Shown piece after piece: positions 9,787 to 13,584 of a DNA stretch of 34,714 nt. The DNA is taken from IMG/VR virus record IMGVR_UViG_3300001846_000239, positions 78,281 through 112,994 of that record; one strand, 5' to 3'. The notes under the pieces are model-generated. The model was not told where the DNA came from. It ran no database searches and saw only the letters and a list, made by a program, of their open reading frames with translations. This stretch comes from a virus. Every line of letters begins with the position of its first letter. The first letter of the stretch is position 1. The position numbers and the translations under genes were made by a program.

Positions 9787-11694
9787 TTAGAAGGATACTG
9801 TTTGAGATACTCTGTTGACTGGAGTTTGGTTGATAATACTAATATTTTGCTTAGTACTACTATCAGAGCTTGCTACTGTGACTGGAGCACTTGTTTCAAC
9901 CGGTCTTTCTGGCATTCTTAATTCAATATTTTCAGCTGATAGATTGATTACCGCATCACCCTGTATGCTAGGAGAATTTTGTACTGCCGCAGATGGGGTT
10001 GAAGGGTTTTGAATAAGCTGTAACATTTCGTTTGCTTTTTTGATTGTCGCAACGGCTGCTTCAGCATCATCACCAAGGTTAGCAAGACCTTTTGTCTTAA
10101 AGTCTCTACCTTCATAGATTGTTCCACCCGACATAATGACTTCTAATACCTTCATGTATTCGGCCAGATCTTCAACCATATCGTCAAGATCTAATGTCAA
10201 TCCATCCATCTTGGTAAGTTTAGCAAATGACTCAGCAAAGTGATCAAACGCAGTGGCACCGTCCTCGATAAGTTGTGCATTCTCACCAACCTTCATAGCG
10301 GCTTCAATAGGACTTTCACCACCTACAAAGAATTTAACAATACCTGCACCAAGATCAGCAATCGCATTTAGACCTTTACTTGCAGCAAATGTTGATAAGC
10401 CTGCACTCAAACTTAGCAATGCATCGTTAGCTCGTGATGTTCTTTCATAGTCTGCATCTTCACCGATAGACAATAAGGTATTTACCTGTTCTTTAATTGT
10501 ATCAGCAAAATCACCTTCGGTAAATTTATCAATAGCATCTGCAGTACTATTAGCACCTTTACCTATCGCAAATGCGACAAGACCAAGTGACAATCCACTC
10601 ATTGTTTTACGGAATGCAGTTGTATCACCAGCCTTACCTAAATCAATCGATAAAAGTGTTTCAACCTCACGCTTAATATCTTCGGCAAAGTTTTCGCCAG
10701 AGAATTTAGTTATCGCATCACCAACGCCAGAACCAGTTTTACCTATGGCAAAGGCTACAAGACCAAGAGCTAAACCGCCCATAGTCAATGCGAAGTCACC
10801 AACTTGACCAGCAGTACCAGTATCGATAGAGATTAATGTTTCTACTTCTCTCTTGATATTGTCTGCAAAGTTTTCACCTGATGTAAATTTGGTTACTGCG
10901 TCAGCAACACCGGATCCAGCTTTACCTACTGCGAATGCAGCAAGACCAAGACCCAATGCACCCAGTGTAAGAGATACTCCAGCCACACGCTCGGGTGTCA
11001 TATTTTCTAGATCAGCAATGGCTAGCAAATCATCAATATTACCTCTGATGTTTTGAATCCAATCGCCATTACCTTCGAATCTACTTACGGCTTTACTTGC
11101 TACTTCACCTAATGAGAATGCGGCAAGGCCTAAACCGAGAGCACCCATTGTAGCAGAAACAGAGGCTACATTTGCTACGGTCATTCGGTCAGATTCGGCT
11201 ATACTTAAAAGCTCATCAACGTTTTCTTTAATCTTTTCTGTATCTAATTCACCAAATTGTTCCATGGCATAGGTCAAACCAGCTGCACCAACACCAAGAC
11301 CAGCAAGTAATGCACCTGCACCCATTGCAATTGGTCCCATCATACCGCCTAGTTTACTTAATATGCCACTACTCTTCCTGGCTTCTGCACTATCTGGAGA
11401 AGCTTTTGTAGTAATACCATCGGCCAATAGATCTTTAATCTCTTCGAATATAAGACCTGATTCTCTATTCTTTTCGATCTCTGCAAGGCGACTATTATCC
11501 ATTGACTCAAAGAAGTCATTAAATACAACATTCAGGCTTGCACTTGTTTCTAGTGCAACCTGTTGCATTTTCTTTAATTCCAAAAGATGCCGACGGGTAT
11601 TTCTGCCATCACGTTCAATCTCGCCAGTGGCGCGATTGTTTTCTGACATTAAATCAATTAATTCTCTTATATCGTTTCGATTTTCGTCGGCCAT
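9787..11694 (-). CDS. Tape-measure / baseplate-hub protein (gp29-like)
   Basis: 635 aa, helical and Ala/Gly-rich with ~60-aa repeats and an S/T/N/P-rich C-terminus. Last gene of the gp54-gp26-gp51 operon. Confidence 0.65.
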   Translation of the reverse strand: MADENRNDIRELIDLMSENNRATGEIERDGRNTRRHLLELKKMQQVALETSASLNVVFNDFFESMDNSRLAEIEKNRESGLIFEEIKDLLADGITTKASPDSAEARKSSGILSKLGGMMGPIAMGAGALLAGLGVGAAGLTYAMEQFGELDTEKIKENVDELLSIAESDRMTVANVASVSATMGALGLGLAAFSLGEVASKAVSRFEGNGDWIQNIRGNIDDLLAIADLENMTPERVAGVSLTLGALGLGLAAFAVGKAGSGVADAVTKFTSGENFADNIKREVETLISIDTGTAGQVGDFALTMGGLALGLVAFAIGKTGSGVGDAITKFSGENFAEDIKREVETLLSIDLGKAGDTTAFRKTMSGLSLGLVAFAIGKGANSTADAIDKFTEGDFADTIKEQVNTLLSIGEDADYERTSRANDALLSLSAGLSTFAASKGLNAIADLGAGIVKFFVGGESPIEAAMKVGENAQLIEDGATAFDHFAESFAKLTKMDGLTLDLDDMVEDLAEYMKVLEVIMSGGTIYEGRDFKTKGLANLGDDAEAAVATIKKANEMLQLIQNPSTPSAAVQNSPSIQGDAVINLSAENIELRMPERPVETSAPVTVASSDSSTKQNISIINQTPVNRVSQTVSF

Positions 11695-11704
11695 ATCTTA
11701 CTTC

Positions 11705-12028
11705 CTACTTTTTACCAAAGTTTTGTGTTCCAAAGAAAGCTGCTACAATACCAGCAACTGCAACAAAATATGTTGGAGCCATATCACCCAGTACTTCCAT
11801 TGCCTGATCTAAACCAACCAGGGATGCAACTACAACTGCGAATGGATATAGTAATAGTCCACCTAATGCAAACCATGTCATTTTACGTTGCGCATCACGC
11901 ATTGCATCTGCATCATCGAGTTCTTTACGTTTGAACTCAAGATACATCGCATGTTCTTCGTCAGATACTTTACCATCACCGTTTGTATCTGCTGGATGGT
12001 CAGGCTTCATTTTTACTTCTTCTGTCAT
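11705..12028 (-). CDS. Small membrane protein with an EF-hand-like loop and 2 TM helices
   Basis: DTNGDGKVSDEE fits DxxxDGxxxxxE. TM segments are WFALGGLLLYPFAVVVASLVGL and TYFVAVAGIVAAFFG, followed by a basic C-terminus. Confidence 0.75.
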   Translation of the reverse strand: MTEEVKMKPDHPADTNGDGKVSDEEHAMYLEFKRKELDDADAMRDAQRKMTWFALGGLLLYPFAVVVASLVGLDQAMEVLGDMAPTYFVAVAGIVAAFFGTQNFGKK

Positions 12029-12213
12029 CGTCTTGTCCTTTGTTTAATTTTTTCGTTTTCGTCTTCAATATGTTGCTGCAATAGGCTAACATATATCTGC
12101 CTCTCCCATGGTAACATATTATCAAGCTCTGTTAAACTATACTTGTGATGTTGAACTAATGCGAAGTTTGTCTTATAATGATTGGTCAAACTCTCATGTG
12201 AGAGGCCTATGAA
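12025..12213 (-). CDS. gp51: gp51-like baseplate hub assembly reading frame; no good start codon, probably reached by -1 frameshift from gp26
   Basis: Translates as FIGLSHESLTNHYKTNFALVQHHKYSLTELDNMLPWERQIYVSLLQQHIEDENEKIKQRTRR*. The NFAL.QHHKYSL.E..NM.PWER motif is typical of marine T4-like gp51. Confidence 0.75.
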   Translation of the reverse strand, partial: FIGLSHESLTNHYKTNFALVQHHKYSLTELDNMLPWERQIYVSLLQQHIEDENEKIKQRTRR

Positions 12214-12908
12214 AAAAAACTTTGTAGACCTCTTAGCTCTACGTTAGATTTCTCTCCACACTTATGGCAAGTGATTTCATCTTTATATTCAACAGCCGGT
12301 ATAGCTTGGAAGAATGTTTGCAATTTCTTGAATTGCGTAGAGTTTAAGTTTTCAATAAACTCTTGTACCTCTTCCTTACTGGTCTGACTTCTGTCATATA
12401 CCGCATCTTCATCAAATATACAATCAACACAACTTACTAGTAAGTCCATCACACCTTCAACGCTGTCAAGTTTTTCTATATCTAATTCACCAAATGTTGC
12501 AACAGATGGATAAGACATCTTGACACCAATATCATCAGTTAACATGATAACGTTATCATCTTTTACATTTGCCATTTTTACATCATCAACGTTGATAGTC
12601 AGTGGATTAAGTTCTTCACAGTGTTCGCACTTAATCTGTAGGTTCATTTCTTCGCCAACTGACTTGCCTCGCAATTGCAAGAACATATATTCAATGTCAA
12701 ATGTAGTTAATTTAGTGACATCATCCAAACCATAACATGATTGGATAACATCTTTTACCGCGTTGGAAATCTGCAGAGGATCCGCTGATTCCATTGCGAC
12801 CATCAATACCTTCTCTTCTTTCACAAGATAAGGTCTCATCTTGAGCGTTTCGCCGGTAGACGGCAACTTAATGTCGTACCTTGGTACGCTCATCTTGGGT
12901 AAAGCCAT
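12207..12908 (-). CDS. gp26: Baseplate hub subunit / assembly chaperone
   Basis: Motifs MALPK...LPSTG...RPYLVKEEKVL and FDIEYMFLQLRGKSVGE, two CxxC pairs, and a GLQSFFS end. Confidence 0.88.
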   Translation of the reverse strand: MALPKMSVPRYDIKLPSTGETLKMRPYLVKEEKVLMVAMESADPLQISNAVKDVIQSCYGLDDVTKLTTFDIEYMFLQLRGKSVGEEMNLQIKCEHCEELNPLTINVDDVKMANVKDDNVIMLTDDIGVKMSYPSVATFGELDIEKLDSVEGVMDLLVSCVDCIFDEDAVYDRSQTSKEEVQEFIENLNSTQFKKLQTFFQAIPAVEYKDEITCHKCGEKSNVELRGLQSFFS

Positions 12909-12933: not shown

Positions 12934-13584
12934 TTAATTAAATATTGTACCAACCGCAGACAATGTAGATTGAACCGGCCCTTCTGGTACATAGTTTTCG
13001 TAACTCAAAGTCACACTCATTTTCTGAACAGTATTTTCAGCATTACTGTCCAGGTTTACCGCATTCACAGTGATTGGAAATGCACCTTCCAATCTAACCG
13101 CATATACTGGTACGTTATCCTGATTTAGCTGTTGTATAACTATATCAGTCTGAAAATCTTTTTTATAACCTGCTCTGTATGTATTCATATCAATGATACC
13201 ACTCATCCATGTGTCAAACATTTTCTTGACATAGTAATCATTGGTAAGCAGGAATGTCATTGTCACATCTTCATTGATTACTGTATATGGCACCTTGATC
13301 GTTTGTTTATCGGCAGTGTAATCAATCGTTGCAATCTGTCTTCCAGGCAATTGTACTGACTCGCATAGAATAGAGATATCTCTTGGGTCAGGTATAATAT
13401 TAGTAGGCGACGCACCTGCAATTGCATTTCTTGCAAGATCACCAACAAGAGAACCAATACTCGAGTTCAAGAGTGACTTGAATGAATTGGATGTCGGGGG
13501 TGTAAAGAACACATTAAAACGGTTTTGCATTGCAATACCGCCCTTCTTAGCAATTGTTGATTTAAGATCGTCTATACTGTTCAT
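12934..13584 (-). CDS. gp54: Baseplate tail-tube initiator (gp54/gp19 fold)
   Basis: Tube-fold motifs NRFNVFF, LCESVQLPG, LEGAFPITV and SVTLSY; lies between gp2 and gp26. Confidence 0.65.
   Translation of the reverse strand: MNSIDDLKSTIAKKGGIAMQNRFNVFFTPPTSNSFKSLLNSSIGSLVGDLARNAIAGASPTNIIPDPRDISILCESVQLPGRQIATIDYTADKQTIKVPYTVINEDVTMTFLLTNDYYVKKMFDTWMSGIIDMNTYRAGYKKDFQTDIVIQQLNQDNVPVYAVRLEGAFPITVNAVNLDSNAENTVQKMSVTLSYENYVPEGPVQSTLSAVGTIFN

What the first reader, a model, noticed from the sequence alone, without database searches (positions are those of the whole stretch)
12025..12246. Probable programmed -1 frameshift fusing gp26 to gp51: a lambda G/GT-like chaperone pair in a T4-like phage
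Seen: on the minus strand gp26 ends ...AGA GGU CUA CAA AGU UUU UUU UCA UAG, containing a run of 8 U (A8 at 12212-12219). The gp51-like sequence (HESLTNHYKTNFALVQHHKYSL...PWER) lies in the -1 frame, which is open across the U-run and bounded by a UAA at about 12244-12246. That frame has no AUG before the conserved motif, only a UUG at 12189 without a well-spaced SD. An SD-like GAGGU sits 8 nt 5' of the U-run, and a hairpin CUCUC-ACAU-GAGAG (12204-12191) starts 7 nt 3' of it. Established: a slippery heptamer with an upstream internal SD and a downstream hairpin is the dnaX-type -1 frameshift layout. Frameshifted tail chaperone pairs (lambda gpG/gpGT) sit upstream of tape-measure genes, as this pair does, whereas T4 genes 26 and 51 are treated as separate genes. 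Inference: the phage makes gp26 (233 aa) and a gp26-gp51 fusion of about 294 aa at a fixed ratio.
Basis: partly seen in the sequence, partly recalled or inferred. Interest (0 to 1): 0.85.

Follow-up and report, generated by a model that had tools for sequence, protein, structure and literature searches.

The report
Frameshift in T4-like tail chaperone gene
One tail-assembly gene of this uncultured marine T4-like phage very probably makes a 233-residue and a 294-residue protein because some ribosomes slip back one base on a conserved run of U's; phage T4 makes the same pair from two genes (26 and 51), and the idea was published in 2022, so this is one more example.

Summary
gp26 (233 aa, Pfam T4_baseplate) ends AGU UUU UUU UCA UAG. 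The gp51-like sequence lies in the -1 frame, open from 12243, with no AUG or GUG before its conserved motif.

In 227 of 227 related loci (40 clusters at 70% identity) the gp51 piece is in the -1 frame behind an in-phase T_TTT_TTN heptamer. Codon usage alone would give this with P of about 1e-10 to 1e-19. 28 of 40 clusters have no start codon for the piece.

T4 and Aes508 gp51 carry the same gp26-type domain plus this extension in one frame. They align without a gap across the junction and have no T-run there.

AlphaFold models of the window's gp26 and of a natural single-frame fusion both place the three solved phage tail assembly chaperones as the top 3 of 48,161 PDB chains.

The upstream SD-like element has comparative support. 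The downstream hairpin does not.

This is not new. Vladimirov, Gautam & Davidson (Virology 2022) identified gp26/gp51 as the T4-like tail assembly chaperones, and this scan has reported the same signal in more than 100 other genomes.

Whether the slip is ribosomal or transcriptional is untested. No product was observed.

The parts
12207..12908 (-). gp26-type ORF, the short (0-frame) product of 233 aa, stop TAG at 12209-12207. It has an N-terminal tail-assembly-chaperone fold, a beta/Zn-ribbon middle part and a C-terminal ...GLQSFFS.
   Evidence: Pfam PF12322 T4_baseplate, E 3e-63. phrog_150 baseplate hub, E 6e-69. AF2 model pLDDT 87. The top 3 structural neighbours are the TACs 3fgx, 2ob9 and 3klu, Z 7.4-7.7.
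12228..12233 (-). Internal Shine-Dalgarno-like AGAGGU, 8-9 nt 5' of the slippery heptamer. It is a candidate upstream stimulator.
   Evidence: Anti-SD pairing of -6.5 kcal/mol, in the top 2% of positions in this ORF. The equivalent element is in the top 10% in 29 of 40 clusters. The Glu codon before the conserved Gly is GAG in 9 of 10 clusters, against a 26% GAG background.
12213..12219 (-). Slippery heptamer U_UUU_UUU in the gp26 frame (X_XXY_YYZ). It is part of the T8 run at 12212-12219.
   Evidence: Sequence. An in-phase T_TTT_TTN is present in 227 of 227 related loci. The codon before it varies (AGT, AAT, GAT, TCT, GCT) but always ends in T. T4-type single-frame gp51 genes have no T-run at the aligned site.
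12028..12213 (-). -1 frame extension of 62 codons (FIGLSHESLTNHYKTNFALVQHHKYSLTELDNMLPWER...), the 'gp51' piece. It would be added to gp26 residues 1-232 to give a 294-aa long form.
   Evidence: phrog_634 hub assembly catalyst, E 3e-28. It also matches positions 229-280 of phrog_150, the same profile that gp26 matches at 5-232. It aligns with T4 gp51 residues 204-246. Pfam PF28602 is precomputed on its relatives. It forms helices in the AF2 model of P0004.
12191..12204 (-). Small hairpin CUCUC-ACAU-GAGAG, 7-8 nt 3' of the shift site. It is present, but there is no good evidence that it is functional.
   Evidence: MFE -6.1 kcal/mol, 35th percentile of local 40-nt windows. The central pair is unpaired in 20 of 36 distinct relatives and compensated in only 3.
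12934..13584 (-). Upstream neighbour: a tail-tube-family protein of 216 aa (gp48/gp54-like tube initiator).
   Evidence: Pfam Phage_T4_gp19, E 8e-10. phrog_45 tail tube, E 2e-38.
11705..12028 (-). Downstream neighbour: a 107-aa protein with a C-terminal hydrophobic stretch. Its ATG overlaps the gp51-frame stop (ATGA).
   Evidence: ORF list and sequence. The only Pfam hit is a sub-threshold EF-hand_5 match.
9787..11694 (-). Downstream 635-aa repeat protein, a probable tape-measure (gp29) analogue. This is inferred.
   Evidence: Position and size. About five repeats containing GALGLGLAAFA.GK. The Atlas gives a lead to a PF25671 T4_Tape_measure cluster at 0.91. There is no Pfam, PHROG or tblastn match. 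The equivalent gene in Caulobacter phage Cr30 is annotated as tail tape measure.

Best explanation
The gp26-type gene is the tail assembly chaperone (TAC) gene of this T4-like phage, and it is decoded in two ways.

Most ribosomes terminate at UAG and release a 233-aa short form. A minority slip back one base while decoding UUU_UUU in the heptamer U_UUU_UUU (12219-12213). They continue in the -1 frame for 62 codons and produce a 294-aa long form with a C-terminal helical extension, the so-called gp51.

An AGAGGU 8-9 nt upstream probably pairs with 16S rRNA and promotes the slip. The small downstream hairpin probably contributes little.

By analogy with lambda gpG/gpGT and P2 E/E+E', the shared N-terminal TAC domain would coat the tape-measure protein encoded just downstream. 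The extension on the rare long form would recruit a tube or hub partner.

What is shown: the sequence anatomy, its conservation, the homology to T4 gp26 and gp51, and the TAC-like fold. What is inferred: that the long form is made, the ratio of the two forms, the ribosomal mechanism, and the binding partners. The confidence given is for the long fusion being made by slippage on the U-run with ribosomes as the main route. That a fusion is made by some slippage mechanism I put at about 0.9.
For: 1. Frame and heptamer. In 227 of 227 related loci, from pelagiphage/OM43-phage-like, cyanophage, rhizobiophage, Cr30, KVP40/nt-1-like, Aeromonas and freshwater groups, the gp51 piece is in the -1 frame behind an in-phase T_TTT_TTN ending 0, 1 or 8 codons before the gp26 stop.

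2. Selection at the nucleotide level. The preceding codon changes amino acid (S, N, D, A) but always ends in T, and the first Phe codon is always TTT. From codon usage alone P is about 1e-10 at 20 clusters and 1e-19 at 40 clusters.

3. No independent start. 28 of 40 clusters have no ATG, GTG or TTG from the upstream -1 stop to 5 codons past the shift. Where an ATG exists it sits at codon +1, +2 or +3, and at the +3 position other clusters have S, G, I, V, A, T, C or N. Gene callers leave the piece unannotated in S-CAM4, S-SSM4 and S-H9-1.

4. A hard-coded equivalent. T4 gp51 and Aes508 gp51 are PF12322 domain plus this extension in one frame, and T4 gp26 is the same domain without it. Virtual -1 fusions align gap-free with T4-type gp51 through the junction. 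T4-type genes have no T-run there.

5. Fold. Two AF2 models (pLDDT 92.7 and 87.0) each have HK97 gp13 (2ob9), YqbN (3klu) and Rbstp2171 (3fgx) as the top 3 of 48,161 chains, at Z 7.0-7.7 over 80-85 residues. Unrelated chains start at Z 4.4-5.3. PMC9603447 states that all three are TACs.

6. Precedent. P2 E/E+E' shifts -1 at TTTTTTG without a hairpin (PMC3091744).

7. Ribosomal rather than transcriptional. A third of the clusters have only T6 and none has more than T8. The SD-like element shows synonymous-site bias, with GAG in 9 of 10 clusters against a 26% background.
Against: No protein, peptide or reporter datum exists here; everything is comparative.

The FF dipeptide is partly a protein constraint, so the phase of the run cannot be separated fully from coding. 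The SD-like element overlaps a conserved [EKR]-G dipeptide.

The downstream hairpin is weak and not conserved, so a classical three-part signal is not established.

The window's run is T8, long enough for some RNA-polymerase slippage. [quoted passage not shown] I could not read it, so I cannot say whether it argues against ribosomal slippage in phages like this one.

Structural Z scores of 7-8 are in a range where unrelated best hits also occur (tool note).
Confidence: 0.75

Rival explanations
1. Transcriptional slippage. RNA polymerase stutters on the T8 template run and adds one U to a fraction of the mRNAs, and ordinary translation of those mRNAs gives the same 294-aa fusion. This could act alone or together with ribosomal slippage.
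For: The window and 13 of 40 clusters have T8, and homopolymer runs of this length can support some polymerase slippage (Atkins et al. 2016, PMC5009743, reviews such cases). The weak, non-conserved hairpin is what one expects if no ribosomal stimulator is needed. [quoted passage not shown]
Against: 13 of 40 clusters keep only T6 and 14 keep T7, and no lineage has extended the run beyond 8. Selection for polymerase slippage would favour longer runs. The upstream SD-like element with synonymous GAG bias has no role in transcriptional slippage. P2 shifts ribosomally on TTTTTTG (PMC3091744).
Confidence: 0.15
2. No recoding. gp51 is a separate small protein made by termination-reinitiation or by a non-canonical start (AUA overlapping the UAG, or the UUG at 12189). 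The -1 relation is just the usual 1- or 4-nt gene overlap, and the U-run only encodes a conserved Phe-Phe.
For: Overlaps of the TAATG, TGATG and ATGA type all give the same -1 relation. Several clades (phiM9, Cr30, nt-1, P-SSM2) do have an ATG at or next to the gp26 stop, and databases annotate gp51 as a separate gene. T4 itself uses a rare internal start in gene 26 (the 26' CDS).
Against: 28 of 40 clusters have no start codon. The window's UUG lies inside the conserved motif and would delete its first residues. The 0-frame stop moves (0, 1 or 8 codons after the heptamer) while the heptamer does not. Conservation in the -1 frame starts at the heptamer and is colinear with single-frame T4 gp51. 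The T of the preceding codon is invariant across five codon types. T4-type gp51 genes lack both the FF and the T-run.
Confidence: 0.06
3. Artefact. The homopolymer length is an assembly error, and the real gene is a single in-frame ORF (T9) or a pseudogene.
For: Homopolymers are error-prone. Four singleton single-frame fusions (P0001, P0003, P0004, P0005) exist in the protein database.
Against: The same two-frame arrangement occurs with T6, T7 and T8 in 227 independent loci, including isolate genomes from several laboratories such as P-SSM2, S-CAM4, phiM9, nt-1 and Cr30.
Confidence: 0.02

Closest known systems
T4-like tail assembly chaperones gp26 (short) and gp51 (long), as identified by Vladimirov, Gautam & Davidson 2022, Virology 566:9-15 (PMID 34826709)
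   Same: Same protein family (PF12322 plus the gp51 C-terminal extension) and the same short/long logic. Citing papers say the work covers both the two-gene solution of some T4-like phages (PMC10274946) and poly-T slippery sequences in the TAC-N genes of T4-like phages (PMC12846349).
   Different: The window is an uncultured marine phage whose closest cultured relatives are Pelagibacter phage Mosig and the Methylophilales phage Melnitz. It has a T8 run instead of the commoner T6 or T7. I could not read the paper, so I cannot say whether the SD-like element, the codon-level statistics or the T4-type no-T-run control are in it.
Phage T4 genes 26 (208 aa) and 51 (249 aa), 'hub assembly chaperones' (Leiman et al. 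2010, PMC3004832)
   Same: Both are PF12322 (E 9e-64 and 4e-52). gp51 residues 204-246 align with the window's -1 piece. Neither is reported as a certain virion component.
   Different: T4 encodes the two forms as divergently transcribed paralogous genes, with no T-run at the junction. The window has one gene and needs recoding.
Lambda gpG/gpGT and the conserved -1 frameshift of tail assembly chaperone genes (Xu, Hendrix & Duda 2004, as reviewed in PMC5009743)
   Same: Two products share an N-terminus, and the long one comes from a -1 shift near the 3' end. The gene sits after a tube-family gene and before a probable tape measure. The N-domain has the TAC fold.
   Different: The protein is about twice the size of typical TACs, with an extra beta/Zn-ribbon region. 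The heptamer is U-rich, not G_GGA_AAG. There is no sequence-level similarity. The review lists T4 as the exception.
Phage P2 E/E+E' (-1 shift at TTTTTTG; Christie et al. 2002, cited in PMC3091744)
   Same: A myophage tail chaperone with a U-run heptamer and no conserved downstream hairpin. The phiM9 and P9VFCI relatives use the identical TTTTTTG.
   Different: E is 91 aa and unrelated in sequence. The P2 shift is experimentally proven, and this one is not.
E. coli dnaX -1 frameshift (SD-like element, heptamer, hairpin)
   Same: An internal SD-like element about 9-10 nt upstream of an in-phase heptamer.
   Different: The heptamer is U_UUU_UUU, not A_AAA_AAG. The strong downstream stem-loop of dnaX has no conserved counterpart here. 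The shift extends the protein rather than truncating it.

Membership tests
T4 gp26/gp51 family (Pfam PF12322 T4_baseplate) | Significant match to the family profile over its full length | tested here: met
   Window gp26: E 3.2e-63, profile positions 2-218 of 219. T4 gp26 and gp51 match the same profile.
T4 gp26/gp51 family (Pfam PF12322 T4_baseplate) | A long form carrying the gp51 C-terminal extension | tested here: met
   The -1 piece matches phrog_634 (E 3e-28) and positions 229-280 of phrog_150. It aligns with T4 gp51 residues 204-246 (E 4e-5). The alignment with T4-type gp51 is gap-free across the junction.
Frameshifted tail assembly chaperone pair (lambda G/GT type) | Second ORF in the -1 frame, overlapping the end of the first and lacking its own start | tested here: met
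   The window has no ATG or GTG, and its only TTG lies inside the motif. 227 of 227 loci are in the -1 frame, and 28 of 40 clusters have no start codon.
Frameshifted tail assembly chaperone pair (lambda G/GT type) | [quoted passage not shown] | tested here: met
   U_UUU_UUU at 12219-12213. T_TTT_TTN is found in 227 of 227 loci, with P of 1e-10 or less from codon usage.
Frameshifted tail assembly chaperone pair (lambda G/GT type) | Located between the tail tube gene and the tape measure gene | tested here: inconclusive
   A tube-family gene lies directly upstream. The downstream 635-aa repeat protein is a tape measure only by position, size and an Atlas lead (0.91). It has no PF25671 match.
Frameshifted tail assembly chaperone pair (lambda G/GT type) | TAC fold of the shared N-terminal part | tested here: met
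   2ob9, 3fgx and 3klu are the top 3 of 48,161 chains for two independent models, at Z 7.0-7.7 over 80-85 residues, with the next unrelated chain at Z 4.4-5.3. Caveat: Z below 8 alone is not decisive. Profile searches find no sequence link.
Frameshifted tail assembly chaperone pair (lambda G/GT type) | Both products made in a fixed ratio; both required for tail assembly; absent from virions | not testable with these tools
   This needs proteomics, reporters and genetics.
dnaX-type tripartite -1 signal | Upstream SD-like element at about 10 nt | tested here: met
   AGAGGU ends 8 nt before the run. It is in the top 2% of the ORF for anti-SD pairing, and the equivalent is in the top 10% in 29 of 40 clusters. 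GAG is used in 9 of 10 clusters against a 26% background.
dnaX-type tripartite -1 signal | Stable, conserved downstream stem-loop | tested here: not met
   The window hairpin is -6.1 kcal/mol, at the 35th percentile. The median percentile over 40 clusters is 0.38. The central pair is broken in 20 of 36 relatives. Strong stems occur only in the P-SSM2 group and in Cr30.
Transcriptional slippage sites | Homopolymer long enough for efficient polymerase stuttering (usually 9 or more), with no phase requirement | tested here: inconclusive
   Runs are T6, T7 or T8 in 13, 14 and 13 of 40 clusters and never longer. The window's T8 is borderline. No RNA data are available.

The most novel reading that the evidence does not exclude
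The most novel reading not excluded is as follows. In the one-gene T4-like phages the long chaperone is made by true ribosomal -1 slippage, driven by an internal Shine-Dalgarno-like element that is itself under synonymous-site selection. The signal is tuned by keeping the U-run between 6 and 8. This would be a defined two-part signal (SD plus U-heptamer, no hairpin), conserved from pelagiphages to cyanophages and rhizobiophages. If the 2022 paper favours a non-ribosomal route for these phages, this reading would revise it.
Probability: 0.45. Interest if true: 0.4.

Novelty: new member of a known kind. Interest (0 to 1): 0.25.

Why it matters
The G/GT-type frameshift was long described as conserved in long-tailed phages "except T4" (PMC5009743). 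The gp26/gp51 pair closes that gap, and this window is a clean example of the one-gene form.

Practically, thousands of T4-like genomes, including RefSeq cyanophage records, annotate gp51 as a free 50-60-aa ORF or leave it as an "intergenic" gap. A joined CDS with ribosomal slippage would be the better annotation.

[quoted passage not shown] Because the idea is already published, and this scan has met it more than 100 times, this instance adds little.

Tried and rejected
- **Hairpin as a conserved stimulator: rejected.**
- **T8 run as a statistical oddity of the window: rejected.** There are 2 runs of 8 or more against 4.4 expected.
- **Sequence-level link between gp26 and known TAC families: none found.** A profile of 109 sequences against PDB sequences gave no hit at E 10 or below. 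A Pfam scan of all members at E 5 or below showed no Phage_TAC family. phmmer against PDB gave only chance hits.
- **Foldseek against PDB: nothing at E 0.001 or below**. Only the exhaustive VIA-align search found the TACs.
- **Rfam: no family at gathering score in the whole window**.
- **Tape-measure identity of the 635-aa protein: not established.** There is no Pfam match even at E 10 or below, no PHROG match, no tblastn match in phages, and no BLASTP similarity to the Mosig counterpart.
- **The 2022 Virology paper: not read.** It is not held in the library, and only its title and two citing summaries were used.
- **Literature searches before the scan-note lead found nothing relevant**.
Full report
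**1. The observation**

On the minus strand, an ORF of 233 codons (12908..12207) ends AGA GGT CTA CAA AGT TTT TTT TCA TAG, with a T8 run at 12219-12212. The -1 frame is closed by TAA at 12246-12244 and then open to 12028. It reads ...KFFFIGLSHESLTNHYKTNFALVQHHKYSLTELDNMLPWERQIY.... Its only potential start before the motif is TTG at 12189, which lies inside the conserved motif. GAGGT lies 8 nt upstream of the run, and CTCTC-ACAT-GAGAG (12204-12191) starts 7 nt downstream. A T8 run is not in itself surprising in this 38% GC window: there are 2 runs of 8 or more, against 4.4 expected.

**2. What the two ORFs are**

The 233-aa protein is a full-length Pfam T4_baseplate (PF12322) protein, E 3e-63. 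The -1 piece matches phrog_634, "baseplate hub assembly catalyst", at E 3e-28. It also matches positions 229-280 of phrog_150, the same profile that gp26 matches at positions 5-232. Some family members are therefore contiguous.

Those members are the T4-type gp51 proteins. Aes508 gp51 (249 aa) and T4 gp51 (249 aa) consist of a PF12322 domain (E 2e-45 and 4e-52) followed by about 50 residues that align with the window's -1 piece. T4 and Aes508 gp26 are the same domain without the extension. About 1,380 phage records, mostly Straboviridae infecting enterobacteria, Acinetobacter and Aeromonas, hold such a single-frame gp51. About 600 records hold the small piece behind a gp26-type gene. These are cyanophages, a pelagiphage, OM43 phages, rhizobiophages, Cr30, KVP40/nt-1-like vibriophages and some Aeromonas phages.

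**3. Comparative test of the frameshift**

I collected 232 loci and located the gp26 stop and the gp51 piece in each. All 227 loci that contain both have the piece in the -1 frame. All 227 also have an in-phase T_TTT_TTN heptamer (Z = T, C or, rarely, G) ending 0, 1 or 8 codons before the gp26 stop.

The -1 relation alone would also follow from ordinary TAATG or ATGA overlaps. The informative features are these:

- **Nucleotide-level selection.** The codon before the run codes for S, N, D or A (AGT, AAT, GAT, TCT, GCT) but always ends in T, and the first Phe codon is always TTT. From each ORF's own codon usage, the joint probability is about 1e-10 for 20 clusters at 50% identity, 1e-19 for 40 clusters at 70%, and 1e-39 for 90 clusters at 90%.
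- **No start codon.** 28 of 40 clusters have no ATG, GTG or TTG in the -1 frame from its upstream stop to five codons past the shift point. Where an ATG exists it sits at codon +1, +2 or +3. At the +3 position other clusters carry S, G, I, V, A, T, C or N, and the listed junctions show ATG exchanged for ATA at the same codon between sister loci.
- **Moving stop, fixed heptamer.** The 0-frame stop moves while the heptamer does not.
- **Tight window for the shift.** In several loci a -1 frame stop lies immediately 5' of the run, so only the run itself can join the frames.
- **Colinearity with T4-type gp51.** Virtual -1 fusions align without a gap with T4-type gp51 through the junction...GLQSFF|FIGLSHESL... 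against ...NMLDLFEVLVNPDEI....
- **Control.** T4-type single-frame genes have neither FF nor a T-run at that site: GAC GTG TTT AAG, GAT TTG TTT GAG, CCA TTA TTC AAA. The run is therefore not demanded by the protein.

Gene callers often fail to call the piece, leaving a gap of about 180 nt in S-CAM4, S-SSM4 and S-H9-1.

**4. Stimulators**

*Upstream.* A purine-rich element (AGAGG, GGAGGG or AAGGG) sits at a fixed place with its G-core about 9-10 nt before the heptamer. In 29 of 40 clusters its predicted pairing to the anti-SD is in the top 10% of the ORF; in the window it is -6.5 kcal/mol, in the top 2%. It overlaps a conserved [EKR]-G dipeptide. However, the Glu codon there is GAG in 9 of 10 clusters, against 26% GAG elsewhere in the same ORFs. 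That bias points to selection on the RNA.

*Downstream.* The window's 5-bp hairpin is real but ordinary, at -6.1 kcal/mol and the 35th percentile of local windows. Its central pair is broken in 20 of 36 distinct close relatives and compensated in only 3. Across 40 clusters the median percentile is 0.38. Strong stems exist only in the P-SSM2 group (-15.6 kcal/mol) and in Cr30 (-11.6 kcal/mol). P2 E/E+E', which shifts at TTTTTTG, also lacks a hairpin (PMC3091744).

**5. Ribosomal or transcriptional slippage**

Runs are T6, T7 or T8 in 13, 14 and 13 of 40 clusters, never shorter than 6 and never longer than 8. T6 is poor for polymerase stuttering, and selection for stuttering should lengthen the run. 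The SD-like element makes sense only for ribosomes. I therefore favour ribosomal slippage, but the window's T8 could add a transcriptional contribution. No RNA or protein data were available.

**6. What it works like**

An AlphaFold2 model of P0004, a natural single-frame fusion from a Tara contig, has pLDDT 92.7 and pTM 0.87. A model of the window's own gp26 has pLDDT 87.0. Both were searched against 48,161 PDB representatives.

In both searches the top three chains are the three solved tail assembly chaperones: HK97 gp13 (2ob9), Rbstp2171 (3fgx) and YqbN (3klu). Scores are Z 7.0-7.7 with 80-85 aligned residues, covering model residues 1-94. Unrelated chains start at Z 4.4-5.3. PMC9603447 confirms that these three are TACs. 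Z below 8 is not decisive alone, but the same three functionally specific hits appearing twice is hard to ascribe to chance.

In the fusion model, a helix is predicted at residues 233-240, about where the junction falls, and three more helices complete the extension.

The gene order also fits the TAC position. A tube-family gene (12934-13584) is followed by gp26/gp51, then a 107-aa hydrophobic protein, then a 635-aa repeat protein. The tape-measure identity of the last one rests only on position, size, repeats, a language-model lead (0.91 to a PF25671 cluster) and the annotation of its Cr30 counterpart. It has no Pfam, PHROG or tblastn match.

**7. Prior knowledge**

My own literature searches found nothing. 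They did turn up the statement that G-T frameshifting is conserved "except T4" (PMC5009743) and the listing of gp26 and gp51 as hub assembly chaperones (PMC3004832).

The scan's earlier notes show the same finding in more than 100 other genomes. One of them names Vladimirov, Gautam & Davidson 2022, Virology 566:9-15. The paper is not held. Two citing papers summarise it. One says that some T4-like phages carry a short gene and a longer fusion gene instead of frameshifting (PMC10274946). The other says that poly-T sequences are -1 signals in TAC-N genes of T4-like phages (PMC12846349). The core idea is therefore published.

**8. Verdict**

The mechanism is most likely ribosomal -1 slippage at U_UUU_UUU helped by an internal SD-like element. 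Novelty: a new member of a known kind. Interest is low to moderate. The residual value lies in the codon-level statistics, the SD-like synonymous bias, the T4-type no-T-run control, and the annotation problem in public records.

Noticed in passing
L002 3017-3194 (S-CAM4), L232 1238-1424 (S-SSM4), L233 1223-1397 (S-H9-1): In several GenBank and RefSeq cyanophage records the gp51 piece is not annotated at all. This leaves an apparent intergenic gap of about 180 nt after the baseplate hub gene. None of the records examined annotates a joined (ribosomal slippage) CDS.
   Followed up: partly
window 9787-11694 (-): A 635-aa protein with about five tandem repeats of about 60 aa, each holding a glycine-zipper-like hydrophobic stretch (GALGLGLAAFA.GK) and an 'ENFA.[DN]IKREVETL.SID' segment. 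It has no Pfam, PHROG or tblastn match and no BLASTP similarity to the equally placed 655-aa protein of Pelagibacter phage Mosig. The only lead is a 0.91 Atlas score to a T4_Tape_measure cluster.
   Followed up: partly
window 11705-12028 (-): A 107-aa protein whose ATG overlaps the stop of the gp51 frame (ATGA). It has an N-terminal DTNGDGKVSDEE stretch (sub-threshold EF-hand_5, E 0.009) and a C-terminal hydrophobic half. A small ORF sits at the same place in Mosig, phiM9, Cr30 and P9VFCI.
   Followed up: no
L003 3007-3050 and the P-SSM2-like loci L090-L169: The P-SSM2 group has a much stronger stem-loop starting in the first few nt after its T_TTT_TTC (-15.6 kcal/mol, the lowest of all local windows), and Cr30 has one of -11.6 kcal/mol. 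Downstream stimulators therefore look lineage-specific rather than ancestral.
   Followed up: partly
proteins P0001, P0003, P0004, P0005: Four singleton database proteins join the gp26 domain and the gp51 piece in one frame. P0004 reads exactly like the predicted -1 product of a Mosig-like phage.
   Followed up: partly
fold searches: The fourth structural neighbour of the gp26 N-domain is ORF19 of the Vibrio cholerae PICI-like element (5ir0, Z 4.9-5.5, about 80 residues). It may be another TAC-fold protein in a phage satellite.
   Followed up: no
Pfam column: A Pfam family PF28602 is precomputed on the gp51 piece of relatives but is absent from the local Pfam copy. This is why the piece gave no Pfam hit.
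   Followed up: no
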